NCBI GenBank assembly: GCA_001730085.1
Contig: MDLB01000107.1
Coordinates: 34,432 to 98,431 of the forward strand
Direction of reading: 5' to 3'
Origin: PVC group bacterium (ex Bugula neritina AB1)
GTDB taxonomy: Bacteria > GCA-001730085
DNA: 64,000 nt
A program made the translations under genes and the position numbers. Shown here in pieces: positions 14,343 through 48,036 of the stretch. Positions within the stretch are counted from its first letter, which is position 1. Each line of letters begins with the position of its first letter. Below the pieces are notes generated by a model. That model was given only the letters and a program-made list of their open reading frames with translations, was not told where the DNA came from and made no database searches.

Positions 14343-15101
14343 TTACCCTTTTAGTGATTTCAAAATTGATTGTCGGTTCGCACGTGCTATATTCGAAACA
14401 GAAATACTTTTAGGACAAGCAGCCTCACACTCATAGGTATTAGAACAATGACCAAAGTTTTCCTCATCTACTTGATCCAACATATCTTCAACCCTTTGCA
14501 AGCTCTCAGGCTGACCTTGTGGCAACAAAGATAACTGAGAAATTTTAGCTCCAACAAAAAGCATCGGAGAAGCATTGGGGCAAGCCGCGACACAGGCGCC
14601 ACAGCCTATGCAAGAAGCTGCATCCATCGCTAAGTCTGCTTTCTCCTTATCTATTAATGTAGCATTGGCATCAGGAGCACTCCCTGTTTTCGCAGAAATA
14701 TATCCCCCAGAAGAGACAATCCTGTCTAAAGCAGACCTATCGACCACCAAGTCTTTCACAACAGGCATCCCCGCTGATCTCCAAGGCTCTACAACCAATG
14801 TATCTTGATCTTTAAAATGACGCATATGAAGCTGACAAAGTGTCGTATCTTTTAATGGTCCATGAGCCTCTCCATTCACCATTGCACCACACATACCACA
14901 TATACCTTCGCGACAGTCATGATCAAAAGCGACAGGCTCCTCATTTTGAGCCACAAGTTTTTCATTAAGAAGATCTAGCGTTTCTAAAAAAGACATGGAG
15001 ACACTTACGTCTTCCAGTTGATATTCTTTAAACTTCCCTTTATCCTCTGGGCTCGATTGTCTCCAAATTTTAAAATTGAGCGTTATTTTTTTTGACATCA
15101 T
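14343..15101 (-). CDS. sdhB: Succinate dehydrogenase / fumarate reductase iron-sulfur subunit
   Basis: 2Fe-2S ([10 protein letters not shown]), 4Fe-4S and 3Fe-4S cysteine clusters ([24 protein letters not shown]). Confidence 0.9.
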
Positions 15102-17011
15102 TCATAACTCCTCTGAGAGAGTTTCACATTTTCAAATAAGAGCTCTTCCTGATGCCTAGAAGGAGCTTGGTTTTTATCTTTGTATTCCCAGACAGATGCG
15201 TGACAAAAATCTTTATCATTTCGTAGCGGGTCCCCTTTATCCGTTTGAAAATCTTCTCTAAAGTGACCTCCACAAGATTCATTACGAGACATCGCGTCTA
15301 AGATCATAAGCTCACCATACTCCAAGAAGTCGGCAACTCTACCAGCTTTTTCCAAGGACTGATTAAGATCTTTCGCAGAGCCAAGAACATTAACCTCTGA
15401 CCAAAAGCGTTCTTTTAACTCTAAAATCAAAGACAACCCCTCTTCTAAACCCTTAGGAGTTCGAGCTATTCCACAATGATTCCACATGATTTGCCCCAGT
15501 TTTTTATGAAAGTAATCAACCGTTTTGTTTCCCTTCACCTTGAGCAGGGTAGATATATGCTGATTAACTTTTTGTTTAGAATCTTCAGCAAGTGTAGAAC
15601 TTTTATCTTTTTGAATAGGGTCGACAGAAGCCAAGTAATCACTCACCGTAGCAGGTGCAACAAAATATCCATCTGCTAAGCCTTGCATTAAAGCACTGGC
15701 TCCCAAACGATTCGCACCATGATCTGAAAAATTCGCTTCTCCAAGAACAAATAGTCCGGGGATTGTACTCATCAAGTTATAGTCAACCCAGAGACCTCCC
15801 ATCGTATAATGCACCGCAGGGTAAATCCTCATAGGAACTTGAAAAGGACTCTCTCCGGTTATCCGGTCATACATGTCAAAGAGATTTCCATATTTTTCAA
15901 AAATCACATTCTTCCCAAATTTATCAATAGCTTTGCCAAAGTCAAGATAAACAGACATTTTATACTCACCCACACCTCGACCTTCATCACATTGTTTTTT
16001 CATGCTCCGAGCAGCTACATCTCTAGGAACAAGGTTCCCAAAACTTGGATAAATTCTTTCTAGAAAATAATCCCTTTCTTCTTCAGGGATTTCAGAAGGG
16101 TTCCTAGTATCTCCTGATCTTTTAGGCACCCAAACACGGCCATCATTCCTTAAACTTTCACTCATCAAAGTCAACTTTGATTGAGTGTCACCTTCGAGAG
16201 GCATACATGTAGGATGAATCTGAACAAAACAAGGATTGGCAAAACAAGCGCCTTTTTTGTAAGCTCTCCAAGCTGCCGTAACATTGCTAGCCATCGCATT
16301 TGTAGAAAGAAAAAAAACATTAGAATAGCCGCCTGTCGCCAAAACAACAGCATCAGCCATATGCGTTTCCAATTCCCCCGAAATAAGATTTCTAACAGTG
16401 ATTCCCTTCACTGCTTCATCCACGATCAAGTCAAGCATTTCTCTGCGAGAAAACAGCTCAATGTTTCCTCTGCCGACTTCTTTCATTAAAGCTCCGTAAG
16501 CCCCCAATAAAAGTTGCTGACCTGTTTGACCTCTAGCATAAAAAGTTCGTGAAACCTGCGCACCTCCAAATGACCTATTGGCTAAATAGCCACTATATTC
16601 ACGTGCAAAAGGAACTCCCTGAGCAACACATTGATCTATAATATTATTGCTAAGCTCAGCTAATCGGTAAACATTCGCTTCCCTAGCACGATAATCCCCA
16701 CCCTTGATTGTGTCATAAAAAAGACGAAAAATACTGTCTCCATCATTGCAATAGTTTTTTGCAGCATTGATACCCCCCTGAGCAGCTATACTATGAGCTC
16801 TACGGGGAGAATCTTGAATACAAAAAGACTTGACGTTATAGCCCATCTCCGATAAAGAAGCAGCAGCAGAGGCTCCTGCCAAGCCCGTTCCAACAACTAA
16901 AACAGTATAGTTTGAACGTCTAGAAGGGCTAACCAACTTAAGATTCATTTTATGATTTGACCACTTTTGTTCAAGAGGGCCAGAAGGGATCCTAGAGTTT
17001 AGATTCATCAA
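15098..17011 (-). CDS. sdhA: Succinate dehydrogenase / fumarate reductase flavoprotein subunit
   Basis: FAD-binding [10 protein letters not shown], a HPT motif, and full-length similarity to the SdhA/FrdA family. Confidence 0.95.
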
Positions 17012-17714
17012 GAACTCCCACTTTTATTACTTGATCGTTACCATAATGATTTAGAAAATATGCATATATCGGAATAGTCACATAAGATAAGGTTATACAT
17101 ATAGAAAAGATACGCGAAAACTTCTTCAAAAAACCACCATATTTTGAAGAGTATATCCCAAAGGTTTGAAAAAAACTTTGAAAACCATGATCCAAATGCA
17201 AGCCGACAGCAACCATAGAAAAAATATACCATAGCGAATGTCTTAAAGATGAAAAAGAGTTAAAGACAAGACCGTAGAGCCCGAGAGATTTTCCATTAAC
17301 TACAGTGGCCTGCCCTTCGTGACTAGAAAAAGTATAATCCAACAAGTGCAAAACAATGTATATAAAAATAATAGGACCCGTTAAGGTCATTAACCTAGAA
17401 GAAAAAGACCTTTGAGCAGAACTTTTTTGGACAGAATATTTAACAGGCCGAACTTTTCTTTTTCTGATTATCAAGAATACGGTTAGGTACATATGAAAAA
17501 TAAAAATAAGAAACAGTACAAACTCAAAAAAGTTAAGAAAAGGTCTCATATTTTGAAGTTTTTTTGCGTACCCATTAAAGACATCTGCGCCAGCAAAAAA
17601 CGTTAAGTTTCCCGCCAAGTGAGCGACAACAAAAAAAATCAAAAATAATCCTGTGACAGCTATGATTTGTTTAATTCTAATCAAAGACTTAGGTACAAGA
17701 AAAGACATTTCCAA
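16992..17714 (-). CDS. sdhC: Succinate dehydrogenase cytochrome b membrane anchor (single-subunit, 5-TM, B. subtilis-type SdhC)
   Basis: Five predicted TM helices with conserved His residues. Located immediately upstream of, and overlapping, sdhA. Confidence 0.75.
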
Positions 17715-17768: not shown

Positions 17769-18038
17769 TTAATCAATATTTTCTTCTACCAAAAGACTAA
17801 CAACATTGGAAGACACGTGAACGATACCCTTTTTTACAGACAAAGAGGTCGTTCCTTCATCAGTCTTCACATCAATGCGGCCATCTCTTAAAGGAGATAA
17901 GAAAGGTGCGTGCCCAAACATTAGTCCAACATCTCCATCAAGAGCAGGAACTAAAAGAAAAGACGCCTTTCCTTCCCATACTTTTTTCTCACGCGAAACA
18001 ATTTTTAAATCTAAAAACTGTTCTTCTTTTTTAGACAT
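17769..18038 (-). CDS. atpC: F1 ATP synthase epsilon subunit
   Basis: Short epsilon-like beta-sandwich sequence directly downstream of atpD. Confidence 0.8.
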   Translation of the reverse strand: MSKKEEQFLDLKIVSREKKVWEGKASFLLVPALDGDVGLMFGHAPFLSPLRDGRIDVKTDEGTTSLSVKKGIVHVSSNVVSLLVEENID

Positions 18039-18054
18039 ATATCCAACCCACTCT

Positions 18055-19461
<1,407 letters not shown>

Positions 19462-19599: not shown

Positions 19600-20448
19600 T
19601 TAAACATTGACCAAAGCTTCTGAGCCACTTGAAATTTCAATCATCTCTTTTGTTATTGCTGCTTGTCTAACTCGATTATAAATCAAGTTTAACGAAGAAA
19701 TCATTTCTTCTGCATTATGAGTAGCAGAGTCCATCGCTGCCATTCTAGCACTTTCCTCGCTCACAGCTGCTGAAGAAACGGCATAAGTTACTGAAGAAAA
19801 AAGATATTCTTCAACAAGTTGATCAAGAACCTCTTTTTCATCCATCTCGTAAAGGGTTTCTGCTTTTTTCCCTTCACATTCACCTTCACAAACAGGAAAA
19901 ATTTTTTTCAAAGAAACTTTTCTTGTCAAAGTGTTCACAAACTCTGTATATAAGAAAAAAACTCTATCGTAAGAAGCATATCTCTGAAGCACCACCTCAG
20001 AAACTTCTTGAACAAAACTTCCAAAAGAAATAGCCCCTGGATTCTCAAAAAAAAATTCCGAAGATTTTCCTAGGCCCTCAAAAAACATTTGTCCGCGCTT
20101 GCCAATAACTCCAATATCATAATCCGACTTTTTTAAAAGTGCCGTGGCTTCGCGAATAACCGCAGAGTTATAGTTACCACAAAGACCTCTATCCCCTGTA
20201 ATAATAACAACCAAGTCTTTCTGTTTATCCATCTTTGTTTTACGCAAAAAAGGGTTTGCTAAGCCTCTATTCCTCTGAGCCACATCCTCAACAACGTGCG
20301 CCATAACTTTTGCAGAAGGCTTGACCTTCTGAAAAGTCTTATCAAATTTGCGAAACTTAACACTGGAGATCATCTGCATCGCACGCGTCATCTTCTGAGT
20401 CTTTTTTACGCTATCTATACGTTTTTTAATTTTTCTTATTTTAGACAA
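19600..20448 (-). CDS. atpG: F1 ATP synthase gamma subunit
   Basis: Gamma-subunit N- and C-terminal coiled-coil helices (ITKEMIEISSGSEAL...). Confidence 0.9.
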   Translation of the reverse strand: MSKIRKIKKRIDSVKKTQKMTRAMQMISSVKFRKFDKTFQKVKPSAKVMAHVVEDVAQRNRGLANPFLRKTKMDKQKDLVVIITGDRGLCGNYNSAVIREATALLKKSDYDIGVIGKRGQMFFEGLGKSSEFFFENPGAISFGSFVQEVSEVVLQRYASYDRVFFLYTEFVNTLTRKVSLKKIFPVCEGECEGKKAETLYEMDEKEVLDQLVEEYLFSSVTYAVSSAAVSEESARMAAMDSATHNAEEMISSLNLIYNRVRQAAITKEMIEISSGSEALVNV

Positions 20449-20452
20449 TGTA

Positions 20453-21967
20453 TCACCTTAAATAATTTTCTCTCAATGGCTCCAAAATCTTAACCAAAAG
20501 ACTTTCCAAAGCTTCTGATAAAACCTTTTTAGCAAGTAATTTCTCAGCAAAATCTTTGCCTTGTTCTGTCTCAAAAAGAGGGATCAGAGCACCCTTAAAC
20601 TCAGCAATTTTATCAACAGGAACTTCGTCTAAGAATCCCTTTGTCCCGGCATAGACAAGAGCAACCTGCACAGCCAAAGAGTAAGGAGAATATTGAGATT
20701 GCTTCAAAAGCTCTGTCAATCGCTGTCCTCTTGTGATCTGTTTTTGTGTCGCAGGATCTAAATCTGTACCAAATTCAGAAAAAGACTCCACTTCTCGGAA
20801 TTGAGCTAAGTCTAGACGAAGACGACCTGCAACCTTTTTCATAGCCTTGGTCTGAGCACTTCCCCCTACACGAGAAACAGAGAGCCCAACATTAATCGCA
20901 GGACGCAAGCCTGAGTAAAAAAGATCTGCCTCTAAGTAAATCTGTCCATCTGTAATAGAAATCACATTCGTAGGAATATAAGCTGAAATATCTGAAGCTT
21001 GTGTCTCAATAATAGGCAAAGCCGTTAAAGACCCTCCACCTTTCTCTGGGCTCAATTTTGCCGCCCTCTCCAAAAGTCTAGAGTGTGAATAAAAAACATC
21101 CCCTGGATAAGCCTCTCTTCCCGGAGGTCTTCTCAACAAAAGCGAAAGCTGTCTATATGCTACAGCATGTTTAGATAAATCATCATAAACAATAAGAGCA
21201 TGCTCACCCTTATCTCTAAAATACTCTCCCATAGAGGCCCCACTATAGGCAGAGATATACTGCATCGCAACAGAGTCACTCGCTGAAGCAGCAACAATCG
21301 TGGTATATTTCATAGCTCCATGAGCTTCCAATGTGTTCCGGATACGAGCTATCGTTGACTTCTTCTGACCAATTGCAACATAGATACACTTAACATCCTG
21401 ATCAGCTTGATTCAAAATCGTATCAATAGCTATCGCTGTTTTTCCGGTTTTACGATCACCAATAATAAGCTCTCTTTGTCCTCTTCCAATAGGAATCATA
21501 GCATCAACAGAAAGAATACCCGTCTGCAAAGGTTCTTTCACTGGTTGTCTATCAACCACACCCAATGCCTCATTTTCAAGCGGATAAAAGTCAGTAGCAT
21601 TTATTTTTTCTTTACCATCCAAAGGATTCCCAAGAGGGTCAACAACCCGCCCTAACAACTCTTCTCCCACAGGAACTTGAACTGACTTGCCTGTCGCTTT
21701 GACCTCATCTCCTTCTTTCAAGGCTGTTTCATTCGCCAAAATAACAGCTCCAACAACGTCACTTTCAAGATTTAAAACCATCCCGTAAACTTTACTTCTG
21801 GGAAAAAACAAAAGCTCACCAATCATGGCGTTACGGATGCCATACAGTTTAGCTACTCCATCACCAACCTGAACAACCGTCCCTACTTCTGAAATTTCAA
21901 CCTGAGAAACATACTGGTCAATTTGACGACTTATGATCGACGTCAATTCTTCTGCTTTGAAACTCAC
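20453..21967 (-). CDS. atpA: F1 ATP synthase alpha subunit
   Basis: P-loop GDRKTGKT and full-length similarity to the alpha subunit. Confidence 0.97.
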
Positions 21968-21984: not shown

Positions 21985-22533
21985 TTAATGCTCCGCAGAG
22001 CTACTTTTAAGTTTTTGCAACTGACACAGCAAACTTGCATCGTACAAGGTATCTCCTAGTCGAACACGAAATCCAGCCATAAGAGACCCTATCTCCGTCA
22101 CTTTCCAATCAATCTTTTTATCACTCCCTAACTTTTCTCCAAAAAGAGATTTTATATAAGAAAGATCCTCCGAAGAAGTATTAGGAGTTATTTCAATTTC
22201 GCCAGCTAGAATATTATTTTCCTCTCGAAATAAAAGCCTAAAAGCTTCCGCAACAGACTTTAACAAGGAAAATCTTCCATGATCCATCAAGGTCATTACA
22301 GACGCAATAAAGTCTTTCTCAAGTTTTATAGCTGACAAAATTTGCATAAAAACAAGCTTCTTCTCTCGAAAATCAATTTTAGGATGTGTCAGAAAAACAC
22401 TAATAGAAGGATATTCATCCAAAAGACTTTCTAAAAGTTGAAAGTTTTCTAAAAAAAGCTTCACACGAGAAACATCTGAAGAAACTTGCTTTAAAAATGC
22501 CAATGCATATCTACGAGAAAGATCACTACTCAT
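21985..22533 (-). CDS. atpH: F1 ATP synthase delta (OSCP) subunit
   Basis: Operon position and size (182 aa); delta-like N-terminal helical bundle. Confidence 0.75.
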
Positions 22534-23029: not shown

Positions 23030-23347
<318 letters not shown>

Positions 23348-23403: not shown

Positions 23404-24177
23404 TCAATCACTCAGTTGCATAGAAATATACGTTGTCGCAAGCATTGCAAAAACAAAAGCTTGAACAAACCCTGCAAAAAGACCAAAAAAGGCATACGCA
23501 ACAAAGTATAAAATAGAAATCACCGGCGCCATCAAAGCATAAAGCGAACCTCCCGCTAAGCCCATCTGAGAAAAAGATTTTTCCACAATATCCGGACCCC
23601 CAACAGATGAAATCACCTTAAACACAACCATAGGAATCATCCCAAAAATAACCCCACCGCCAAACATATTTCCAAACAAACGAAAACAATGAGAAAGTGT
23701 TTGCCCAATCTCTCCTATAACATTAAGCGGCAACATAAAAATAAAGGGTTGCCCATAGCTTTTCAAGTAACCTCCAAGCCCTTTTGTACAAATCCCAGAA
23801 AAATGCGCAACAAAAAAAACAGTCAAAGCCAAAGACAAACAAACATTCAAGTCTTCTGTAGGACTAGACATCCCTGGAATAATCCCAATAATATTAGAAA
23901 CTAAAATAAACAGAAAAACAGTAGCAACAAAAGGAAAGTATTTTCTAGTCCTATCCTTCAACGTTCCCTCTAAAATAGAAAAAAAGCCACCCACAAACAT
24001 CTCAAGCAAAGACTGCTTTTTAGAGGGAAAGAACTTTAACTTGCGCGTAGATAGAAAAGAAAAAACGATCATGATCAAAAGAACAATAAAAATCATTCGC
24101 CATGTAACATCATTAAAAACTATTTCGCCCAATCTAGGAATCTGAATACTGCTTTTATGAACAGCGCCTACATCCAT
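23404..24177 (-). CDS. atpB: Fo ATP synthase a subunit
   Basis: Multi-TM protein with the conserved a-subunit Arg region (LSHCFRLFGNMFGG). Confidence 0.85.
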   Translation of the reverse strand: MDVGAVHKSSIQIPRLGEIVFNDVTWRMIFIVLLIMIVFSFLSTRKLKFFPSKKQSLLEMFVGGFFSILEGTLKDRTRKYFPFVATVFLFILVSNIIGIIPGMSSPTEDLNVCLSLALTVFFVAHFSGICTKGLGGYLKSYGQPFIFMLPLNVIGEIGQTLSHCFRLFGNMFGGGVIFGMIPMVVFKVISSVGGPDIVEKSFSQMGLAGGSLYALMAPVISILYFVAYAFFGLFAGFVQAFVFAMLATTYISMQLSD

Positions 24178-24185
24178 AAAAAAAT

Positions 24186-24449
24186 TTACGCTCCACCTTC
24201 AAAGTAAAGTAATAAAACACCTATAACAAGAGCATAAATACCACTACTGCTCGCAATAGCCATCGCAACAAGCATCACCTTCATAATGCCTGATCTTGTA
24301 TCTTCTCTTTTGGCCATTGCCTGCAACCCTATCGCTCCAACATTACCTGCACCAATCGCAGGACCAATAGCACCCAAACCCATACACATTGCGGCACCTA
24401 AAAAGGAAAAAATTCTTAAAAATTCAAGTTTTTCCATAAAAAAAATCAC
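24186..24449 (-). CDS. ATP synthase c-subunit paralog lacking the essential carboxylate (AIASSSGIYAL instead of AETTGIYAL)
   Basis: Aligns with atpE: [25 protein letters not shown] vs [23 protein letters not shown], and a GIYAL helix 2. 4-nt overlap with the upstream atpI-like gene. Confidence 0.6.
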   Translation of the reverse strand: MIFFMEKLEFLRIFSFLGAAMCMGLGAIGPAIGAGNVGAIGLQAMAKREDTRSGIMKVMLVAMAIASSSGIYALVIGVLLLYFEGGA

Positions 24450-24853
24450 CTTCTTCTACCTACAAATTCTGTCACAATTCGACAAATATTAGCTTCCTTA
24501 AGAAACAAAAACCCAATAAGAAAGCTCCAAAAAAAAGTAAAACCTTTGTGGATCAATAAATACAAAAAGAATCCAACAAGAAAGTAAAATATAATATAGG
24601 CAAAAAAGAAAAAAGTAAAGATTTTTTTAACAACGAAAACCTCTTGCGTCAATGCTTTTCGAACAAAAAGAAAACACGAAAAAAGATTCAACAAAGTTAA
24701 CGAAGTTCCTAAAGCCCAACACCTAAGAGCTTCCTTTCCTCCCATAAAAAAAACAACTAGCATTCCAACTAATAAACAAAAAAAAGAAAACCCAAAACCT
24801 TCTTGAGAGCTCCTAAACATACCTTCTTTAATAAAAGAGTTTTTTTTAAACAT
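24446..24853 (-). CDS. atpI: AtpI-like ATP synthase-associated membrane protein
   Basis: Small 4-TM hydrophobic protein at the head of the atp operon. Overlaps the c-like gene by 4 nt. Confidence 0.45.
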   Translation of the reverse strand: MFKKNSFIKEGMFRSSQEGFGFSFFCLLVGMLVVFFMGGKEALRCWALGTSLTLLNLFSCFLFVRKALTQEVFVVKKIFTFFFFAYIIFYFLVGFFLYLLIHKGFTFFWSFLIGFLFLKEANICRIVTEFVGRRR

Positions 24854-25011: not shown

Positions 25012-25290
25012 TTAACCGTTTTCACCCTCAAACAAAGAATCCTCTTTATCAAAAAAATGTATCAAAACTTTCCGATAAACAGAATAAACACCACAAGCAA
25101 CTCCAGCAAAAAGACCAATACAAAAGCAAAGAGAAACATCTTCCCTTAAAAGCCTATCTAAAAAAAACCCCAAACTCCCTCCCAGCAAAGTAAAAAACAT
25201 CATCCTTAAACATAAAGAGAAAAAAGGAAGCCCTATATTTTTTTGCAACTCACCAAAATGTATTTTTTTTTTAAATTCATGATATTTCAC
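25012..25290 (-). CDS. Small 2-TM membrane protein (possible AtpZ-type ATP synthase-associated protein)
   Basis: 92 aa with two hydrophobic helices. Located between parB and atpI, only 8 bp from the parB stop. Confidence 0.3.
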   Translation of the reverse strand: MKYHEFKKKIHFGELQKNIGLPFFSLCLRMMFFTLLGGSLGFFLDRLLREDVSLCFCIGLFAGVACGVYSVYRKVLIHFFDKEDSLFEGENG

Positions 25291-27115: not shown

Positions 27116-28918
27116 CTAAGATTTCCTATATTTCTCAATATGAATCATCAAAACAGATATATCTGCGGGGCTAACCCCCATAATTCTACTCGCCTGACCA
27201 AGATTCACAGGCAAAACTTGAGCCAATTTCTCTTTCGCTTCTTTTTTTAAACCTTGCAAGTTTTCAAAAGAGAAACCCTTAGGGATTTTTACATTATCCA
27301 AGTGCTTAACCTTTTCCAACCTCTTATTTTGACGCAAGAGATACCCCTCATACTTTATCTCAGACATGACAAGCTCTTTCAAATCATCTGAGATCGTAGG
27401 AAGTTCAGGAGACACCGGATACTGAGAAATATCCTCTCCTCCCCCCTTCAATAAGGCTTTCATCTTAGGGTCACGCACTATTAAGCCCTTCAGTCTTTTC
27501 AATTCCTTACTCAACGTTTTTTTCTTATCAAGAAAGTCGCAATATTGCGCATAAGGGATTAACCCTACCCGATACCCATACTCTGTTAGACGCATATCAG
27601 CATTATCATTCCGAAGATAAAGACGGTTCTCCGCAGCAGAAGTAAACATGCGATAAGGTTCTTCTGTATTCTTAGTAATCAAGTCATCAATAAGAACACC
27701 TATATATGACTCATCCCTTGACAAGGTTAACGGCTTCTCTTTCTTGATCTTCAAAGCTGCATTAATCCCCGCAACCAAACCCTGCGCAGCTGCTTCCTCA
27801 TAACCAGAAGTTCCATTAACTTGCCCTGCCAAATAAAGACCCTCTATGTTTTTCGTCTCTAACGTTGGGTTTAATTGATTCGGGAACAAAAAATCATATT
27901 CTACAGCATAACCATATCTCAGAACTTTAGCCTTTTCCAAACCTTCAATACTATGAATCATCTCCAATTGCACTTCCTTAGATAAGCTCGTCGACAAACC
28001 ATTCACATAAACCTCATTTGTCGAAAGACTCTCTGGCTCTAAAAAAATTTGATGCCTTTCTCTTTCAGGAAAGCGAACGATTTTATCTTCAAAAGAAGGA
28101 CAATAACGAGGACCTATTCCTTTAATTTTTCCTGTAAAAAGAGGAGAACAATCTAAATTATTTTCAACAATCTTATGTGTTTTAAAATTCGAATAAGTCA
28201 CATGGCAAGAAATATGATCCAACCTTTCCTTTGGAGGAAAAAACGAAAATGTTCTCAAAGGAACATCGCTCGGCTGATCTAATAAGCCTTCATAGTTAAT
28301 CGTTTGCATATCAATACGAGCAGGGGTTCCTGTCTTTAGACGTCCCAACCTAAAACCCATCTCTTGCAAAGCATCAGACAAGCCTACAGAAGCATTTTCT
28401 CCATCCCTACCACCATCATACCCCTTTAACCCTCTATGAATATATCCATTCAAAAAAGTTCCAGAAGTAATAACAAGAGCCTTAGAAAAACAATCCTCAC
28501 CATCTTCCAAAGAAACTCCCTTAACCTTATCTCCATCCATAAGCAAATGAGTAACCATGCCATTTTTAACCGTTAAGTTTTCTTGAGAAGCGACAATTCG
28601 TTGCATCCTTTGAGCATACAAATATTTATCAGACTGTACTCGATAAGCACGAACAGCCGAACCTTTTTTAGTATTCAAGACCCGAAACTGAATCGCAGTT
28701 GCATCTGCATTCTTACCCATTTCACCACCCAGAGCATCAACCTCTCTAGCTAACTGACTTTTGGCAAGCCCTCCGATAGAAGGATTGCACGACATTTTTC
28801 CAATAACAGAGGAATCCATGGTTATCATCATTATATTAAGACCCATACGGCTGGCAGCTAAGCTCGCCTCACAACCAGCATGACCACCTCCAACAACTAT
28901 AATATCAAAAATTTCCAT
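27116..28918 (-). CDS. mnmG: tRNA uridine 5-carboxymethylaminomethyl modification enzyme MnmG (GidA)
   Basis: FAD-binding VVGGGHAGCEA at the N-terminus, full-length GidA similarity. Confidence 0.95.
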   Translation of the reverse strand: MEIFDIIVVGGGHAGCEASLAASRMGLNIMMITMDSSVIGKMSCNPSIGGLAKSQLAREVDALGGEMGKNADATAIQFRVLNTKKGSAVRAYRVQSDKYLYAQRMQRIVASQENLTVKNGMVTHLLMDGDKVKGVSLEDGEDCFSKALVITSGTFLNGYIHRGLKGYDGGRDGENASVGLSDALQEMGFRLGRLKTGTPARIDMQTINYEGLLDQPSDVPLRTFSFFPPKERLDHISCHVTYSNFKTHKIVENNLDCSPLFTGKIKGIGPRYCPSFEDKIVRFPERERHQIFLEPESLSTNEVYVNGLSTSLSKEVQLEMIHSIEGLEKAKVLRYGYAVEYDFLFPNQLNPTLETKNIEGLYLAGQVNGTSGYEEAAAQGLVAGINAALKIKKEKPLTLSRDESYIGVLIDDLITKNTEEPYRMFTSAAENRLYLRNDNADMRLTEYGYRVGLIPYAQYCDFLDKKKTLSKELKRLKGLIVRDPKMKALLKGGGEDISQYPVSPELPTISDDLKELVMSEIKYEGYLLRQNKRLEKVKHLDNVKIPKGFSFENLQGLKKEAKEKLAQVLPVNLGQASRIMGVSPADISVLMIHIEKYRKS

Positions 28919-29788
28919 TAAAAACTACACCCTTTATCTCTAAAAAAAAGCCTTAATTATCAAGAAAGTTCTCTAAAAAATCAAAAAGAATATTCTTTAA
29001 AACAATAAAAATACAAAAACATTTCGTTTCAAAAAATAACTAATCTTCGCTTATGTATGTTTTAAAAATAACAAAAAATATAAAAAATCTTACAAAATAT
29101 TTTACTACGGAAACATTATACAAATAAACGAAAAGTGAAATTTTATAAAAATTCATATTTTAAAACGATTATCGTCTCATATTTTATTTTAATTTTCAAG
29201 AAAAGAAGATTTTAAAGAGTAAAGTTTTTTCACAAAAGATCAAAAACGTACAACTCATTCATCAAAAACAATACCCCTACAACTCTCTTCCCATCAAACA
29301 ACGTTCCCAAAGGAACATCACTGAACATTTTTTTCCATATAAGAATTTTAAACCTTCACCTTTAATAAAGAAGAGTAGGGCAGAGAACCTTCAATATCTA
29401 TTAGCTCAAATAAAATTGCTAAGAAAAACAAAATACAAAGTCTCTAAAAAAGTCATACCTTAAAATTGCAAAAAAAATCCTAACACCAAAACCTAAAAGA
29501 TCTTTATCCTCTCTTAAAAGATATTCCTATAAAGCTCTTTCCATCAAACAACGTTCCCAAGGGAACATCACTAAATATTTTTTCCATATAAGAATCCTAA
29601 ACCCTCGCCTTTAATAAAGAAGAGTCGGACAGGGGAGCCTCAACATCTATTAGTTCAAATAAAAATCCTGAGAAAAACAAAACACAAAGTCTCTAAAAAA
29701 GTCATACCTTAAAATTGCAAAAAAATCCTAACACCAAAATCTAAGAGATCTTCATCCTCTCTTAAAAGATATTCCTATAAAGCTCTTT

Positions 29789-30660
29789 CCATCAAACAAC
29801 GTTCCCAAGGGAACATCACGAAATATTTTTTCCATACAAGAATATAAAACCTTCACCTTTAATAAAGGAGAGTAGGACAGAGAAGCTTCAATATCTATTA
29901 GCACGAATAAAAATCCTAACACCAAAACCTAAGAAATCTGCATCCTCCCTTAAAAGATATTCCTATAAAGCTCTTTCCATCAAACAACATTCCCAAGAGA
30001 ACATCACTAAATATTTTTTCCATACAAGAATATAAACCCTTCACCTTTAATAAAGGAAAGTAGGGCAGAGAAGCTTCAATATCTATTAGCACGAATAAAA
30101 ATCCTAACACCAAAACCTACGAGATCTGCATCCTCTCTTAAAAGATATCCCTATAAAGCTCTTTCCATCAAACAACGTTCCCAAGGGAACATCACTGAAT
30201 ATTTTTTCCATATAAGAATTTTAAACATTCACCCTTAATAAAGGAGAGTAGGGCAGAGAAGCTTCAATATCTATTAGCACGAATAAAAATCCTGAGGAAA
30301 ACAAGATACAAAGTCTCTAAAAAAGTCATACCTTAAAATTACAAAAAAATCCTAACACCAAAACCTAAGAGATCTCTATCCTCTCTTAAAAGATATCCCT
30401 ATAAAGCTCTTTCCATCAAACAACGTTCCCAAGGGAACATCACTAAATATTTTTTCCATATAAGAATTTCAAACCTTCACCTTTAATAAAGGAGAGTCGG
30501 ACAGGGGCGCCTCAACATCTATTAGTTCAAATAAAAATCCTGAGAAAAACAAAACACAAAGTCTCTAAAAAAGTCACACCTTAAAATTGCAAAAAAATCC
30601 TAACACCAAAATCTAAGAGATCTTCATCCTCTCTTAAAAGATATTCCTATAAAGCTCTTT
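29789..30660. repeat. Higher-order repeat copy 1 (S-S-L-L, 872 bp)
   Basis: Unit boundaries at 29789, 29977, 30165, 30413 and 30661. The first ~376 bp are near-identical to copy 2. Confidence 0.85.
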
Positions 30661-31530
30661 CCATCAAACAACGTTCCCAAGGGAACATCACGAAATATTT
30701 TTTCCATACAAGAATATAAAACCTTCACCTTTAATAAAGGAGAGTAGGACAGAGAAGCTTCAATATCTATTAGCACGAATAAAAATCCTAACACCAAAAC
30801 CTAAGAAATCTGCATCCTCCCTTAAAAGATATTCCTATAAAGCTCTTTCCATCAAACAACATTCCCAAGAGAACATCACTAAATATTTTTTCCATACAAG
30901 AATATAAACCCTTCACCTTTAATAAAGGAAAGTAGGGCAGAGAAGCTTCAATATCTATTAGCACGAATAAAAATCCTAACACCAAAACCTACGAGATCTG
31001 CATCCTCTCTTAAAAGATATCCCTATAAAGCTCTTTCCATCAAACAACGTTCCCAAAGGAACATCACTGAACATCTTTTCCATATAAGAATTTTAAACCT
31101 TCACCTTTAATAAAGGAGAGTCGGGCAGGGAAGTCTCAATATTTATTAGTTCAAATAAAAACCCTGAGAAAAACAAAACACAAAGCCTCTAAAAAAGTCA
31201 CACCTTAAAATTGCAAAAAAATCCTAACACCAAAATCTAAGAGATCTTCATCCTCTCTTAAAAGATATTCCTATAAAGCTCTTTCCATCAAACAACGTTC
31301 CCAAGGAAACATCCCTGAAATTTTTTTCCATACAAGAATTTAATTCCTTCATTTTTAATAAAGGAGACTACGGCAGGGAAGCCTCAATATTTATTAGTTC
31401 AAATAAAATTGCTAAGAAAAAAAATACAAAGTCTCTAAAAAAGTCATACCTTAAAATTACAAAAAAATCCTAATACCAAAAACTAAGAGATCTGCATCCT
31501 CTCTTAAAAGATATTTCTATAAAGCTCTTT
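30661..31530. repeat. Higher-order repeat copy 2 (S-S-L-L, ~870 bp)
   Basis: Unit boundaries at 30661, 30849, 31037, 31285 and 31531. Confidence 0.85.
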
Positions 31531-31958
31531 CCATCAAACAACGTTCCCAAGGGAACATCACTGAATATTTTTTTCCATACAAGAATTTAATTCCTTCATT
31601 TTTAATAAAGGAGACTAGGACAGGGAAGCGTCAATATCTATTAGCTCAAATAGAATTGCTAAGAAAAACAAAATACAAAATCTCTAAAAAGAGACAAATC
31701 TTAAACTCATAAAAAAAATACAAAAGACAACAGTCTAAACAAACAAAAACTCTAGAAAAAATATCATTAAATATTTTTTTCATATCAATAAATTTCAATT
31801 AAATATAAAAAAAGAGAAGTCGAAGAGCGAAAGATAGCAAAGTAAATATCAGATCAAAAAGAAAGAGGAGAAGTTTCGAAAAAGATAACTAAAAAGGGAA
31901 TATTCAAAAAATAAAAAAACTCATAAGAAAAAAACCGTCAGAAAAAATTTAAGAAAAA

Positions 31959-33350
31959 CTACTTCCCAATACAAAAATTAGCAAAGAATTTTTTCAAAAT
32001 ATCTTTATCGTACTCTTCTCCCAAAAGAGCAGATAAACTCTCAAGAGCCTCCTTTAAAAAAGTCACCAAAATCTCTTGATGGAAATCCAAAGTTAAATCA
32101 AGAGCTTCCCTCAAAGAGGTCAATGCCTCTTTGACAAAATCAATCTGCCTTTGATTCAACATAAAGACATCCTCATCAAAACTTAAATCTTTCCTTAATT
32201 CAAACTTCAATTTTTCTTCTAGTTCAAACAAAGAGTCCCAGTTCAATGCACTAACAAAAAAAGGCTCAAATGGTGCAACCATTTTTTGTATACTTTTAGC
32301 GATATCCTCTTGCAAACAATCCTTCTTATTTACAAGAACAAAAAGCCTTTGCCCAGAAGATTTCTCCGCCAAAGTCTTACCCCAAAGAACTCTATCTTCC
32401 TCTTCAAAAGAACTTCCGCTCAAAACAAAAAAAATCACATCTGCTTTTTTCACTTCTTCTGAGGTTTTTTGAACACCTATTTTTTCAACAGAATCAACGG
32501 TCTCTCTCAAACCTGCTGTATCAACCAATCGAACACATCTATCAGCAAAAACAATTGCAGCATCAACAACATCCCTCGTCGTTCCCGGAACATTACTAAC
32601 AATCGCTCGATTTTTCCTCAAAAAAGCATTAAAAAGACTAGATTTGCCCACATTTGGCTTCCCAGCAAAAACAAGAGTAATATCATTGCTCAAAGATTTA
32701 GATCGCTTAAAAGAGGCCTCAAGAGCTTCTAAATCAGAAATAATCTTACTTAATTTTTCAGAATAAACATTTTGACTCAAAAAATCGATTTGCTCTTGAG
32801 AAAAATCAAGCTCAGCCTCCAAATAAAGCAAAAGACTTTCTAAAGAATCCTTAGCCGATCGAACTCTCAAAGAAAGATCTCCACCAACTTGCCTAACTAA
32901 GCGCTGTGCCGCACTCCGACTTTTAGAGTGAATAAGATCTGCAACAGCCTCCGCCTGCATCAAGTCCTTTTTTCCCAAAAGAAAAGCTCTTTTAGTAAAC
33001 TCTCCCGGCTCAGCCAAAGACGCGCCGAGCTCAACTGTTTTTTCTAAAATAAAATCTACAATAACAGGACTACCATGACAATGAAATTCAACAAGATCCT
33101 CCCCCGTATAACTATTCGGAGCTAAAAACTTCACAACCATCAACTCATCGATCTTTTCTTGTTTTTGACTAGGATCAACCAAATGAGCCAAATGCAAAGT
33201 TCTCGAAGCAGAATTCTTAAGAAGTTTTCCCGAAAAAAGCTGTAACAACTTATCAGAAATAAAAACAGACTGTGACCCTGTCATCCTCAAAACAGCCAAA
33301 GCACTACAAGCAACGGGAGTAGCTGGCGCAATTATCGTTTCGTGAAACAT
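31959..33350 (-). CDS. mnmE: tRNA modification GTPase MnmE (TrmE)
   Basis: G domain (GKPNVGKSSL, DTAG), C-terminal CIGK tetrapeptide. Confidence 0.95.
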   Translation of the reverse strand: MFHETIIAPATPVACSALAVLRMTGSQSVFISDKLLQLFSGKLLKNSASRTLHLAHLVDPSQKQEKIDELMVVKFLAPNSYTGEDLVEFHCHGSPVIVDFILEKTVELGASLAEPGEFTKRAFLLGKKDLMQAEAVADLIHSKSRSAAQRLVRQVGGDLSLRVRSAKDSLESLLLYLEAELDFSQEQIDFLSQNVYSEKLSKIISDLEALEASFKRSKSLSNDITLVFAGKPNVGKSSLFNAFLRKNRAIVSNVPGTTRDVVDAAIVFADRCVRLVDTAGLRETVDSVEKIGVQKTSEEVKKADVIFFVLSGSSFEEEDRVLWGKTLAEKSSGQRLFVLVNKKDCLQEDIAKSIQKMVAPFEPFFVSALNWDSLFELEEKLKFELRKDLSFDEDVFMLNQRQIDFVKEALTSLREALDLTLDFHQEILVTFLKEALESLSALLGEEYDKDILKKFFANFCIGK

Positions 33351-35839: not shown

Positions 35840-36307
35840 TTATTTCGAACCTCTACATTTCGGGCACACTCCATAAAGTTCAAGTTTATGATGGTGAGGT
35901 AAAAAATTATACTTCTCAAAAATCTCATTCTGCATTGCTTCAATTTCAGGACGACAAAACTCAATACAGGTCGAACATTCTACACAAATCAAATGATCAT
36001 GGTGGGGATGATTATATAAATGCTCATAACGCGTAACCCCATCATCAAATTTCAATTCAACACACAAGCCACTTTCACATAAAAGTTTAAGCGTTCTATA
36101 AACTGTCGTATAACCTATTGATGAATCTTTTTGCTTTACCAACTGATATATATCTTCAGAGGTCATATGCTCGTGTAAAGAAAGAAAAACATCAACAATC
36201 AAATCTCGTTTGCGACTATTCTTAAATTGTCTTTTCTGTAAAAATCTCTCAAAAATTCTTCGCTCTTCTTTGTGCGTAATCATTTTATCTTCACTTAACA
36301 TATACAC
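35840..36307 (-). CDS. Fur-family metal-responsive transcriptional regulator (Fur/Zur/PerR; type not resolvable)
   Basis: Winged-helix N-domain, HHDH motif, two CxxC pairs (CVEC, CPKC). Confidence 0.8.
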   Translation of the reverse strand: MYMLSEDKMITHKEERRIFERFLQKRQFKNSRKRDLIVDVFLSLHEHMTSEDIYQLVKQKDSSIGYTTVYRTLKLLCESGLCVELKFDDGVTRYEHLYNHPHHDHLICVECSTCIEFCRPEIEAMQNEIFEKYNFLPHHHKLELYGVCPKCRGSK

Positions 36308-36670
36308 CTCTCATATAAAAATAAACAATACCTATAAAGAGCTATCCCAGAACCTCTCCACATTTATCCTTACAAAAAGATAGTTTAAGACTATATATTT
36401 CTTCATGCGAAATAAATTAGATTAACCCGCAATACCTCATAATTTTCCATCAAAAAACATAAAGCATTTTTCAAAGCAATATCAATACCCTAATCTAAAT
36501 AATCGTATCATAAAGTTTTATTTTAACAAGCAATTCAATCTGAGAGATAAATCGGAATAAAATCATAATTTCTCCTTTTGTCAGAAGGCATTTATAAAGA
36601 ACATAAATAGAAATTTTTGATTTTTTAAGAAATATTTGAAAACACCAAGATCAAGAAGGTGAAATAAAAA

Positions 36671-36752
<82 letters not shown>

Positions 36753-37527
36753 ATCTTAGAAAATAATTATAACAAAACACAGATTTCTTGTCAAGTTCAA
36801 ATAATTAAAAAGTTTTTAAACATCGTAAAAATAATTAATCATATTTTTAAAAAAACAATCTCATCTAAAAACTATTTTAATTTAATATTTTTTAAAATTA
36901 TCTGTAAATTTTACAAATAATTATTTTAAATAAATTAATAAAATCCTCCTCCCAATCTATAGAAAGCAAAAAAAAGATATAACAATATCATTATTAAAAT
37001 TTAAATAAAAATAATTTAAAATTTAAAATTAAATAAAAATAAATACATTTACAAAAAACTTCATTTATCGTTTTTAAGAAAATAAAAATAAGATTTTTTT
37101 ATTCCTTTAAATAAAAAAGGTTGCTATTCTCTTGAACTAAAAAAATATCTCAGCTATAATAAATATGATTTTTAGTGCCTTCTGATTTGAAAAGTTTTTA
37201 ACTTTAAAAATAACCTTTCTCATTAAAAAAGTTAAAAAATCTTCCATTTTGCAAGGACTGGAGTAAAAAAATATTATAGGCAACCCATAAATCAAATATA
37301 CATTTCATTAGTCTTAAATATCATTGAATAAAAAAATACTTTTAGAGAGTTTATTTAAGAGAATTTTTATTAAATATTTTTAACTAAGAAATAAAATATA
37401 ATAAAAAAGCTAGAAAAATCTAAATATATTTCAGCTATATCTATTTAAAATGTGGTACTGTAAATTAAAATTAGATTTTTATTCATAAATTTAAAGACTT
37501 AAAGACTAAGGAAAACAAAGTGCACCA

Positions 37528-38961: not shown

Positions 38962-38968
38962 GAAAAAC

Positions 38969-40947: not shown

Positions 40948-40953
40948 CTTCAA

Positions 40954-42189: not shown

Positions 42190-42205
42190 TATTAAGGATG
42201 AAATC

Positions 42206-42664
42206 ATGAGTCAAAAGAACCATGAACAACTTTATCAACAGGTGATTTTAGATCATCACCGTGCACCAAGAAACTTTCAAGAACTTTCGGACTATACCCA
42301 CACAGCAGAAGGCTTTAATCCTCTTTGTGGAGACCATTACTCTATATACATGATTGTGAATCAAGATAATAAAATTGAAAAAATCAGCTTCACAGGTGAT
42401 GGATGTGCGATATCTAAAGCCTCTTCTTCTATAATGACAACCTTCCTTCAAAATAAAACCACTACAGAGGTTGAAACATCTATTAAAATTTTTGAGAACT
42501 TTATCATGGGGAAAGATACTTTATCTCAAAGCGAAATAAACTGGGGATCTCTCATAGCTTTTTCTGGGATAAAAAATTACCCATCTAGAGTGAAATGTGC
42601 GATATTGTCTTGGAAAACAGTAAAAGGAGCACTTCTAAACCAAAATACTGTGAGTACTGAATAA
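42206..42664 (+). CDS. sufU: SufU/IscU-like sulfur acceptor and scaffold (NifU N-domain family)
   Basis: HHRAPRN, NPLCGD, FTGDGCAIS motifs. Confidence 0.8.
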   Translation: MSQKNHEQLYQQVILDHHRAPRNFQELSDYTHTAEGFNPLCGDHYSIYMIVNQDNKIEKISFTGDGCAISKASSSIMTTFLQNKTTTEVETSIKIFENFIMGKDTLSQSEINWGSLIAFSGIKNYPSRVKCAILSWKTVKGALLNQNTVSTE

Positions 42665-42791
42665 AAATTCAGATTTATTTGAAAAATATCTTTTCCAAAC
42701 TATGATTGATTTGACAAAAATAAAAAAATACAAAAAATGAGACATTTTCGAACCATCTCATTTATAACAAAAAAAAGAAAGGGACTCTGCC

Positions 42792-43355: not shown

Positions 43356-43360
43356 GTTTT

Positions 43361-48014: not shown

Positions 48015-48036
48015 CCAATCAATTTAAATTCTTGAT

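What the first reader, a model, noticed from the sequence alone, without database searches (positions are those of the whole stretch)
24186..24449. Second ATP synthase c-subunit gene lacking the ion-binding carboxylate, inserted between atpI and atpB
The 87-aa product aligns with the canonical c subunit (23030..23332) through the glycine-rich helix 1 ([10 protein letters not shown]) and helix 2 (GIYAL). It has Ser where the essential Glu sits (AIASSSGIYAL vs [11 protein letters not shown]) and the RQPE loop is replaced by KREDTRSG. It is translationally coupled to the AtpI-like gene (4-nt overlap). A carboxylate-less c protomer could build a hybrid c-ring that alters the ion-to-ATP ratio (as known for the Acetobacterium woodii c1 subunit), or act as an assembly factor.
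Basis: partly seen in the sequence, partly recalled or inferred. Interest (0 to 1): 0.65.

Follow-up and report, generated by a model that had tools for sequence, protein, structure and literature searches.

The report
Extra, site-less ATP synthase c subunit
The ATP synthase operon of this marine symbiont carries a second, strongly conserved copy of the rotor protein (subunit c) that has lost the acidic residue that carries the ion; the same extra gene is found across Omnitrophota-like bacteria and most likely builds a mixed rotor ring with fewer ion sites.

Summary
On the minus strand, between an AtpI-like gene and atpB, lies a c-subunit paralogue that I call c' (24186-24437). It scores 47 bits against Pfam PF00137 (cut-off 24). 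It has Ala and Ser where the partner c subunit (23030-23332) has its two ion-binding Glu. The likely start is the ATG at 24437 (83 aa), not the GTG (87 aa).

c' is under strong purifying selection (dN/dS 0.05-0.12) and is the best-conserved Fo protein here. It is not a one-off. About 80 protein clusters, mostly labelled Omnitrophota, form a c' family. In every locus examined the gene order is atpZ-atpI-c'-atpB-atpE, and a canonical two-carboxylate c follows. Some Omnitrophota lack c'.

No member has the helix-1 carboxylate. The helix-2 Glu is replaced by Ser, Gly or Ala in about three quarters of members, apparently several times independently. The neighbouring Ser/Thr-Thr-x-x-Tyr half-site is retained, as in the site-less hairpin of Acetobacterium woodii c1.

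Best reading (about 0.5): c' is a minor, unfused, site-less protomer of a heteromeric c-ring. Rival readings are an AtpI-linked assembly factor or an accessory subunit. I found no published description. I rate it a new variant of a known kind.

The parts
24186..24437 (-). c' gene: an 83-aa single-hairpin paralogue of ATP synthase subunit c that lacks both ion-binding carboxylates (GAG in place of GEG; AIASSSGIY in place of MAETTGIY). The mechanical ORF extends to a GTG at 24449.
   Evidence: PF00137 at 47.4 bits. 100% identical to OED34343.1, 'hypothetical protein AB834_06945'. Orthologues are 83 aa. dN/dS 0.05-0.12. AlphaFold2 helical hairpin, pLDDT 82.7. Foldseek top hits are c-ring subunits.
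24446..24452 (-). Shine-Dalgarno-like AAGGTGA for c'. It overlaps the TGA stop of the AtpI-like gene and lies 8 nt upstream of the ATG at 24437.
   Evidence: Sequence read. Duplex energy with the anti-SD sequence is -11.0 kcal/mol.
24446..24853 (-). AtpI-like membrane protein (135 aa), immediately upstream of c'.
   Evidence: Weak PF03899 hit, E=0.034. The positional orthologues in L089 and L093 hit PF03899. It evolves fast: 30% aa identity to the L001 orthologue.
25012..25290 (-). AtpZ-like protein (ATPase_gene1 family). It is the first gene of the operon, downstream of parB.
   Evidence: PF09527 at 31.3 bits, cut-off 26.6.
23404..24177 (-). atpB (Fo subunit a), directly downstream of c'. The conserved stator Arg motif (CFRLFGN) is present.
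   Evidence: PF00119 at 165 bits. Alignment.
23030..23332 (-). atpE, the canonical c subunit (100 aa), with a two-carboxylate Na+-type motif (GLGEG ... AETTGIY).
   Evidence: PF00137 at 72.6 bits. Motif compared with the F. nucleatum ring (Glu32/Glu65/Ser66/Thr67/Tyr70) in PMC3692424.
22530..23015 (-). atpF (subunit b).
   Evidence: PF00430.
21985..22533 (-). atpH (subunit delta/OSCP).
   Evidence: PF00213.
20453..21967 (-). atpA (alpha).
   Evidence: ORF. The orthologue in L001 carries PF00006, PF02874 and PF00306.
19600..20448 (-). atpG (gamma).
   Evidence: PF00231 at 257 bits.
18055..19452 (-). atpD (beta).
   Evidence: PF00006 and PF02874.
17769..18038 (-). atpC (epsilon), 89 aa. Only the beta-sandwich domain is present; there is no C-terminal helical domain.
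   Evidence: PF02823 over residues 9-86 is the only hit.

Best explanation
c' is a functional, diverged paralogue of Fo subunit c. It most likely assembles, in sub-stoichiometric amounts, into the same membrane rotor ring as the canonical Na+-type c subunit encoded two genes downstream.

c' has no carboxylate on either helix, so the ion site it would head is dead. It keeps Ser/Thr66, Thr/Ser67 and Tyr70. These are the residues that a c subunit contributes to the Na+ site of its neighbour, so the adjacent canonical site stays intact.

The result would be a heteromeric c(n)c'(m) ring with the circumference of n+m hairpins but only n ion carriers. That means a lower ion/ATP ratio, the same principle as the A. 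woodii c1/c2,3 hybrid ring and V-type proteolipids, but reached with an unfused hairpin.

Shown here: homology, hairpin fold, loss of the carboxylates, retained half-site, strong purifying selection, fixed operon position, and constant co-occurrence with a canonical c.

Inferred: incorporation into the ring, low copy number, and the effect on ion/ATP ratio and on the direction of operation.
For: (1) c' is a true c-subunit homologue: PF00137 at 47 bits and an AlphaFold2 hairpin (H3-43, H45-79; pLDDT 82.7) whose best PDB matches are ring c subunits at TM about 0.8. The best sequence hits in the PDB are A. woodii c1 (4BEM_J) and c2 (4BEM_A).

(2) Ring-packing glycines are invariant across 82 family members: the G-x-G-x-x-G-x-x-G-x-G run on helix 1 is 98-100% Gly.

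(3) Positions 66, 67 and 70 are 94% S/T, 93% S/T and 93% Tyr although position 65 is no longer Glu. In the F. nucleatum ring, Ser66 and Val63 of the adjacent subunit complete the Na+ site (PMC3692424). The in-ring site-less hairpin of A. woodii c1 shows the same pattern, AVAQTTGIYAL.

(4) A canonical two-carboxylate c gene follows atpB in every c'-bearing locus long enough to show it: the window, L001, L009-L012, L091-L093 and the P0289 locus.

(5) Selection is strong. dN/dS is 0.078, against 0.097 for c and 0.22 for a. Amino-acid identity to the L001 orthologue is 83%, the highest of the Fo proteins.

(6) The helix-2 Glu was lost repeatedly. E-retaining and S/G/A forms are interleaved in the tree. 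Ser is encoded by both AGY and TCA, with Gly (GGT) and Ala (GCA) forms also present. This fits a protomer whose own site is dispensable while its scaffold is not.

(7) The Shine-Dalgarno pairing of c' is weaker than that of the canonical c in four of the five loci where the c start codon is secure (in L010 the called TTG start of c is doubtful), which is compatible with a minor component.

(8) There is a precedent that a ring with one site-less hairpin works: A. woodii, with 9 c2/3 to 1 c1 (PMC9171764).
Against: No proteomic, structural or stoichiometric data exist for any member; these organisms are uncultured.

The cytoplasmic-loop motif R-Q/N-P is not kept in c'. The Arg is 95% conserved in canonical c, and from established E. 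coli work I recall that this loop contacts gamma/epsilon. In the window clade the loop reads KRE(D/E)TRS, and in most Omnitrophota it reads E/I-N-P-K.

The gene sits next to atpI, a gene linked to c-ring assembly, rather than next to atpE.

About a quarter of family members still have the helix-2 Glu. 'Site-less' is therefore not the defining property of the family, and its primary role may be something other than lowering the ion/ATP ratio.

In engineered Bacillus PS3 c10 rings even one weakened site (cE56D) slows the enzyme (bioRxiv 10.1101/2021.03.25.436961).

The Shine-Dalgarno argument is a weak proxy. In the window itself c' has the stronger SD.
Confidence: 0.5

Rival explanations
1. c' is an assembly factor, not a stoichiometric subunit. 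Together with AtpI it would act as a c-like template or nucleus on which canonical c subunits oligomerise, or would cap an open ring intermediate, and it would be released or left out of the mature rotor.
For: The gene immediately follows atpI and is often translationally coupled to it, with 4-17 nt overlaps in L091, L093 and the P0289 locus. AtpI is required for functional production of the A. woodii enzyme in E. coli (title of reference 55 cited in PMC9171764). The ion-binding Glu is dispensable and the F1-contacting loop motif is not conserved, as expected for a protein that never has to carry ions or bind gamma/epsilon. Some Omnitrophota do without c' (L017).
Against: AtpI and AtpZ evolve fast here (24-30% identity, dN/dS 0.37-0.76), whereas c' is as constrained as alpha and c. 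That pattern is more typical of a core structural subunit than of a chaperone. The retained mid-membrane S/T66, T67 and Y70 half-site has no obvious use in a transient template.
Confidence: 0.2
2. c' is a permanent accessory subunit outside the rotating ring. It could be a hairpin docked against subunit a or b in the stator, or one that sits in the lumen of the c-ring as a plug.
For: There is no need for a carboxylate or for the RQP loop. Subunit a in c'-bearing operons tends to have a longer helix-5/6 loop than in c'-less Omnitrophota, and carries a ~26-residue insertion in the window clade. This could provide a docking surface.
Against: The loop-length correlation is weak: c'-less Bipolaricaulota have a similar loop length. 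The invariant helix-1 glycine motif and the half-site residues are features of lateral c-c packing. No precedent for a c-like stator hairpin in a bacterial F-type enzyme was found in the PDB searches; all hits are ring protomers.
Confidence: 0.1
3. c' makes up a large share of the ring, for example alternating 1:1 with c. This would be an unfused equivalent of a V-type double-hairpin proteolipid. It would halve the number of ion sites and make the enzyme essentially an ATP-driven Na+ pump.
For: This is the same logic as for ring membership. In addition, epsilon lacks the C-terminal domain, which from my own knowledge is the part that inhibits ATP hydrolysis in many bacteria. Many fused multi-hairpin c proteins with mostly site-less hairpins exist in other anaerobes, so strongly site-depleted rings appear to be viable.
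Against: SD pairing is weaker for c' than for c in most loci. Succinate dehydrogenase/fumarate reductase genes lie directly downstream, which suggests some respiratory capacity and therefore ATP synthesis.
Confidence: 0.12
4. c' is a decaying or neutral duplicate of atpE with no function.
For: It has lost the residue regarded as essential for c-subunit function.
Against: dN/dS is 0.05-0.12 with saturated synonymous sites. The ORF is intact in every relative. The operon position is conserved across a deep family of about 80 clusters.
Confidence: 0.02

Closest known systems
Acetobacterium woodii Na+ F1Fo ATP synthase hybrid c-ring (c1 plus c2/c3; PDB 4BEM)
   Same: It is an F-type operon with more than one kind of c gene. 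One hairpin lacks the ion-binding carboxylate (AVAQTTGIYAL in c1 hairpin 2) but keeps the T-T-G-I-Y half-site. The partner c is Na+-type (AETTGIY). These are the best PDB sequence matches to c'. The ring has 9 single-hairpin c subunits and 1 c1 (PMC9171764).
   Different: A. woodii c1 is a fused double hairpin (182 aa) that still has one working site. c' is a free 83-aa single hairpin with no site at all. c' carries Ser/Gly/Ala rather than Gln at the Glu position and is encoded before atpB, directly after atpI. By per-hairpin score c' is no closer to c1 than to c2, so this looks like convergence rather than orthology.
V-type/A-type proteolipids (double or multiple hairpins with fewer carboxylates than hairpins), and the fused multi-hairpin F-type c proteins seen here in Desulfobacterota, Brocadiia and others
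   Same: The principle is the same: hairpins without a carboxylate sit in the ring and reduce the number of ion sites per ring circumference (PMC9171764; fused examples).
   Different: In those proteins the hairpins are covalently fused, which fixes the stoichiometry. c' is unfused, so its stoichiometry would have to be set by expression and assembly.
AtpR of N-type ATPases (Pfam PF12966), by position
   Same: From memory of the N-ATPase operon description (not checked here), AtpR is a small membrane protein encoded between an AtpI-like gene (atpQ) and atpB.
   Different: c' gives no PF12966 hit at E<=1 and is a clear PF00137 member. This operon has a delta subunit and the normal F-type gene order.
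AtpI/UncI and AtpZ, the small accessory membrane proteins of atp operons
   Same: They are encoded at the 5' end of the operon, next to c'. AtpI is implicated in c-ring assembly (reference 55 of PMC9171764; abstract of PMC9806626).
   Different: There is no sequence relationship: c' hits neither PF03899 nor PF09527. c' is far more conserved than either.
Fusobacterium nucleatum two-carboxylate Na+ c-ring (PDB 3ZK1)
   Same: The canonical partner c in this operon has the same Glu32 + Glu65 + Ser/Thr66 + Thr67 + Tyr70 motif. 3ZK1 is the third-best PDB sequence hit to c'.
   Different: The F. nucleatum ring is homomeric. c' lacks both carboxylates.

Membership tests
ATP synthase subunit c / proteolipid (Pfam PF00137) | Significant match to the family profile over the whole hairpin | tested here: met
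   47.4 bits against a gathering cut-off of 24, residues 17-80 on profile positions 1-60 of 60.
ATP synthase subunit c / proteolipid (Pfam PF00137) | Two-helix hairpin fold | tested here: met
   The AlphaFold2 model has helices 3-43 and 45-79, pLDDT 82.7. Foldseek top hits are c subunits, TM 0.8 to 4BEM_A and 6TQJ_A.
ATP synthase subunit c / proteolipid (Pfam PF00137) | Glycine-rich packing motif on helix 1 (GxGxGxG type) | tested here: met
   The window has GLGAIGPAIGAG. The Gly columns are 98-100% conserved in 82 c' sequences.
ATP synthase subunit c / proteolipid (Pfam PF00137) | Essential ion-binding carboxylate (Glu/Asp) in the middle of helix 2 | tested here: not met
   Ser in the window. 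Across the family: Ser 63%, Gly 8%, Ala about 4%, Glu 24%. No NCBIfam subunit-c equivalog cut-off is reached; the best is NF009999 at 68 bits against 124.
ATP synthase subunit c / proteolipid (Pfam PF00137) | Conserved polar loop R-(Q/N)-P | tested here: not met
   The window has K-R-E-D. The Arg column is 95% Arg in canonical c but E/I/K in c'.
A. woodii c1-type (V-like) hybrid-rotor subunit | Fused double hairpin of about 16-18 kDa with one functional and one site-less hairpin | tested here: not met
   c' is 83 aa with one hairpin and no site. 4BEM_J is 182 aa with two matched stretches.
A. woodii c1-type (V-like) hybrid-rotor subunit | Physically incorporated with single-hairpin c subunits into one ring | not testable with these tools
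   This needs MS or cryo-EM of the purified ring. No multimer prediction is available here.
N-ATPase AtpR (PF12966) | Match to the AtpR profile | tested here: not met
   No PF12966 hit at E<=1.
N-ATPase AtpR (PF12966) | N-ATPase operon lacking the delta subunit | tested here: not met
   The delta subunit is present (PF00213).
c' family as defined here (extra single-hairpin c between atpI and atpB) | About 80-86 aa, non-carboxylate residue at the helix-1 site, encoded atpZ-atpI-c'-atpB with a canonical c after atpB | tested here: met
   The window and loci L001-L012 and L089-L093. Family profile.

The most novel reading that the evidence does not exclude
c' is a naturally unfused, ion-site-less rotor protomer. 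Omnitrophota-like bacteria would build heteromeric F-type c-rings from two separately encoded hairpins and tune the Na+/ATP ratio through the c:c' ratio. The family would also capture, in living lineages, the 'duplicate, lose the site, then fuse' path proposed for the origin of V-type proteolipids. Some members still keep the Glu, others have lost it by at least two mutational routes, and fused multi-hairpin versions exist in other phyla.
Probability: 0.4. Interest if true: 0.75.

Novelty: new variant of a known kind. Interest (0 to 1): 0.6.

Why it matters
Hybrid F-type rotor rings are established experimentally only for Acetobacterium woodii and its relatives. There the site-less hairpin is covalently fused to a working one.

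A separately encoded site-less hairpin, conserved across a phylum-level group, would be a second and simpler way to change the gearing (ions per ATP) of a rotary ATPase. In principle that gearing could be adjusted through expression.

It would also let the long-standing idea be tested that V-type proteolipids arose by duplication followed by loss of the site. Closely related c' genes with and without the Glu exist and could be swapped in a heterologous system.

The practical point is smaller. These genes are currently annotated as 'hypothetical protein' or plain 'ATP synthase F0 subunit C'. Genome-based estimates of c-ring composition and bioenergetics for Omnitrophota and this Bugula symbiont therefore miss them.

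Tried and rejected
1. GTG start with a 4-nt overlap. Rejected in favour of the ATG at 24437, because all close orthologues are 83 aa, stop codons lie just upstream in L001, and an SD sits 8 nt upstream.

2. 'Only four relatives exist'. This was the first impression from the single-sequence word-indexed search and it was wrong. The genome scan, the exhaustive representative search and a profile search revealed a large family.

3. My first regex scan of the loci missed c' in L010-L012 because they carry GFG instead of GLG. I replaced it with an HMM scan.

4. AtpR, AtpI or AtpZ identity for c'. There are no profile hits.

5. The weak DUF5714 hit (E=0.13). I discarded it as noise.

6. A special relationship to the site-less hairpin of A. 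woodii c1. It is not supported: the per-hairpin scores (38 and 37.5 bits) are below the score to c2 (47.5 bits).

7. A subunit-a feature diagnostic of c'-bearing operons. I found only a weak, non-exclusive difference in loop length.

8. Literature. Full-text searches for Omnitrophota/Omnitrophica with ATP synthase c subunit, for hybrid rotor, and for two c subunits found no description of this gene. The main Omnitrophota genomics paper contains neither 'c subunit' nor 'c-ring'. The A. woodii ring paper (PMC4228694) is not held.

9. Multimer modelling was not possible, because only natural single sequences can be submitted.

10. I did not quantify what fraction of Omnitrophota species carry c'. 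The genome scan keeps only the 80 best loci.

Full report
**What is there**

The window comes from the 'PVC group bacterium (ex Bugula neritina AB1)'. The 83-aa product of the finding is 100% identical to OED34343.1, 'hypothetical protein AB834_06945'. This organism is the AB1_div bin of Miller et al. 2016, whose 16S rRNA is related to candidate division NPL-UPA2 (PMC5041132).

A complete F-type atp operon lies on the minus strand, downstream of mnmG-parA-parB:
- atpZ-like, 25012-25290 (PF09527)
- atpI-like, 24446-24853 (weak PF03899)
- the finding, 24186-24449
- atpB, 23404-24177
- atpE, 23030-23332
- atpF, atpH, atpA, atpG and atpD
- a short atpC, 17769-18038

These assignments rest.

**Check of the observation**

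It scores 47.4 bits (E=2.4e-12) against PF00137, whose cut-off is 24 bits, and the match covers the whole profile. It is 38% identical to the canonical c encoded two genes downstream. In an HMM alignment it has Ala where the canonical c has its helix-1 Glu (GAG vs GEG). It has Ser where the canonical c has the essential helix-2 Glu (AIASSSGIY vs MAETTGIY).

One correction is needed. All close orthologues are 83 aa and begin MEK/MEQ/MTG. In L001 the ATG is preceded by stop codons. In the window an AAGGTGA Shine-Dalgarno sequence overlaps the atpI stop codon, 8 nt before the ATG at 24437. The gene is therefore 24186-24437. The '4-nt overlap' belongs to a less likely GTG start. Close coupling to atpI is nevertheless a family trait: related loci show overlaps of 4-17 nt.

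**Is it a live gene?**

I compared the window with the orthologous operon of GCA_964565945.1 (L001). Synonymous sites are saturated (pS 0.65) but pN is 0.108, giving dN/dS of 0.078. The values for the other genes are:

| Gene | dN/dS |
|---|---|
| c' | 0.078 |
| canonical c | 0.097 |
| alpha | 0.065 |
| subunit a | 0.22 |
| atpI | 0.37 |
| atpZ | 0.76 |

At 83% amino-acid identity, c' is the best-conserved Fo protein. All six pairwise comparisons among the four orthologues give 0.05-0.12. Decay or chance is excluded.

**Distribution**

A single-sequence search of 5.8 billion proteins found only four carboxylate-less relatives (72-100% identity). Every other top hit (111 with the G-x-Y motif plus five with A/S in place of that Gly) carries the helix-2 Glu. 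That picture was incomplete.
- A scan of GTDB species genomes found the same extra gene upstream of atpB in an Omnitrophota chromosome (L010) and in two further MAGs (L011, L012).
- An exhaustive profile search of 1.8 billion representatives added P0206 and P0231. Both lie in atpZ-atpI-c'-atpB contexts.
- A profile search with nine members then returned about 80 single-hairpin clusters of roughly 79-86 aa. Those that carry a name are labelled Omnitrophota or Omnitrophica.

I looked up contexts for each subtype. All show atpZ-atpI-c'-atpB, followed by a canonical ~100-aa c, then atpF-atpH-atpA-atpG-atpD. The gene is not universal in the phylum. In L017 atpI abuts atpB directly, and several other Omnitrophota loci have only the canonical c.

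**Anatomy of the family (82 sequences)**

- The helix-1 glycine run is 98-100% conserved.
- The helix-1 ion-site position is Ile 80%, Thr 12% or Ala 4%. It is never Glu or Gln. In the 155 two-carboxylate c subunits collected as the comparison set, Glu at both sites was the selection criterion.
- The helix-2 site is Ser 63%, Glu 24%, Gly 8% or Ala about 4%.
- The next two residues are S/T in 94% and 93% of sequences, and the Tyr one turn later is 93% conserved.
- The loop Arg of the R-Q/N-P motif is 95% conserved in canonical c. In c' it is replaced by Glu, Ile or Lys.

A rough neighbour-joining tree separates c' from the canonical c subunits. Within c' it interleaves Glu-retaining and Ser/Gly/Ala forms in at least three places. 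The Ser is encoded by AGY in the window clade, in L010/L011, in L089 and in L092, with a GGT-Gly form (L007) beside the window clade. It is encoded by TCA in L090, with a GCA-Ala form in L093. AGY and TCN cannot be interconverted in a single step. The Glu therefore appears to have been lost more than once, by Glu to Gly to Ser and by Glu to Ala to Ser.

**Structure**

With the family alignment, AlphaFold2 gives a helical hairpin (helices 3-43 and 45-79, pLDDT 82.7). Its best matches in the PDB are c-ring protomers: 4BEM_A, 6TQJ_A and 2WIE_A at TM 0.8. By sequence, the best solved relatives are the A. woodii c1 and c2 subunits of the F/V-hybrid ring 4BEM, followed by the F. nucleatum and I. tartaricus Na+ rings.

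**Mechanism**

The canonical c here has Glu32, Glu65, Thr66, Thr67 and Tyr70. This is the two-carboxylate Na+ motif of F. nucleatum. In that ring the ion is bound by Glu32 and Glu65, and also by Ser66 and the Val63 carbonyl of the adjacent subunit (PMC3692424).

c' has lost what a subunit gives to its own site, namely both carboxylates. It has kept what a subunit gives to its neighbour's site, namely S/T66, T/S67 and Tyr70, and it has kept the ring-packing glycines. The site-less hairpin of A. woodii c1 shows the same pattern (AVAQTTGIYAL), and that hairpin is known to sit in the ring (9 c2/3: 1 c1; PMC9171764).

Four further observations fit this reading:
- the strong constraint on c'
- the obligatory co-occurrence with a canonical c
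- the repeated, tolerated loss of c's own Glu
- the generally weaker SD of c'

Taken together, the most economical reading is that c' is a minor protomer of a heteromeric c-ring that removes one or a few ion sites. I put this at about 0.5.

The consequence would be a lower Na+/ATP ratio. The epsilon subunit lacks its C-terminal helical domain. From my own knowledge, that domain mediates inhibition of ATP hydrolysis in many bacteria, so its absence is compatible with frequent operation as a pump. Against that, succinate dehydrogenase/fumarate reductase genes lie directly downstream. The direction of operation is therefore open.

**Rivals**

- An AtpI-linked assembly template (0.2). It fits the gene's position and the unconserved F1-contact loop. 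It does not fit well with constraint at the level of a core subunit, given that AtpI and AtpZ themselves evolve fast.
- A stator or lumen accessory subunit (0.1). It has only a weak correlate, the loop length of subunit a.
- A major, alternating ring component (0.12). This is a variant of the main idea.
- A dead duplicate. This is excluded by the selection analysis.

**Comparison with what is known, and novelty**

The principle of site-less hairpins in a rotor ring is known from A. woodii c1 and from V/A-type proteolipids. The fused multi-hairpin c proteins I encountered in Desulfobacterota, Brocadiia and many metagenomes follow the same principle.

What differs here is that the site-less hairpin is a separate gene product. 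It is encoded before atpB, next to atpI, and it forms its own conserved family in which the Glu is still present in some lineages.

c' fails two defining features of a functional c subunit: the carboxylate and the RQP loop. It reaches no NCBIfam equivalog cut-off. It is not AtpR, AtpI or AtpZ.

I found no description of it in the searchable literature. The main Omnitrophota genomics paper discusses F-type ATPases but never mentions the c subunit. Databases call it 'hypothetical protein' or simply 'ATP synthase F0 subunit C'.

I therefore rate it a new variant of a known kind, with interest 0.6. It is a clear, conserved and testable oddity in a very well-studied machine, but its role is still inferred.

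Noticed in passing
window 29285-31717: A non-coding tandem-repeat array of about 2.4 kb (TRF periods 188/248/436, 68-93% matches) fills the gap between mnmG (27116-28918) and mnmE (31959-33350). The repeated 57- and 65-aa ORFs inside it are probably spurious.
   Followed up: no
window 17769-18038 (-): The epsilon subunit is only 89 aa. It has the beta-sandwich domain (PF02823) and no C-terminal helical domain. The same is true in L001 (90 aa) and in Omnitrophota loci (76-86 aa).
   Followed up: partly
window 23030-23332 (-): The canonical c subunit has a Glu on helix 1 (GLGEG) as well as on helix 2 (AETTGIY). This is the two-carboxylate Na+-type motif described for Fusobacterium nucleatum. 113 of the 120 closest database c subunits share the helix-1 Glu.
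   Followed up: partly
L036 3926-4906; L039 4151-4879; L059 4162-4899; L065 4162-4935; L066 4156-4917; L073 2027-3001; L080 3946-4923; L081 4161-4907: Desulfobacterota, a Brocadiia MAG and other MAGs encode fused c proteins of 3-4 hairpins directly after atpB and before a normal single-hairpin c. In some of the hairpins Gln, Ser, Gly or Thr replaces the Glu. The representative search shows many more such proteins, with up to 5 hairpins and a single carboxylate hairpin (for example P0123). This is far more diverse than the A. woodii c1 case.
   Followed up: partly
L010 4065-4310; L017 3415-3645; L090 5195-5440; L092 6164-6403; L093 6159-6419: In Omnitrophota loci the short epsilon gene sits upstream of atpZ, at the head of the operon and after pyrimidine-biosynthesis genes. 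In the window and in L001 it follows atpD at the end of the operon.
   Followed up: no
window ~23512-23610 (-), subunit a residues ~190-222: Subunit a of the window and of L001 has an insertion of about 26 residues (GGPDIVEKSFSQMGLAGGSLYALMAP...) in the loop before the last helix, relative to all other a subunits aligned.
   Followed up: partly
window 24186-24200 (-): The last codons of c' (…E-G-G-A, GAAGGTGGAGCGTAA) also form the Shine-Dalgarno sequence for atpB. The same arrangement occurs in L001 (GAAGGAGGCGCGTAA). This may explain the conserved EGGA C-terminus in this clade.
   Followed up: no
window 14343-17714 (-): A succinate dehydrogenase/fumarate reductase-like gene set lies directly downstream of the atp operon. 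I checked only the cytochrome-b-type membrane subunit at 16992-17714 (PF01127). The neighbouring 637-aa and 252-aa ORFs are unchecked.
   Followed up: partly
window ~36000-52000: GC skew changes sign, from strongly negative to positive, across this stretch. It lies near tRNA-Met (36671-36747) and coincides with a switch of gene orientation, so it may be a replication origin or terminus.
   Followed up: no
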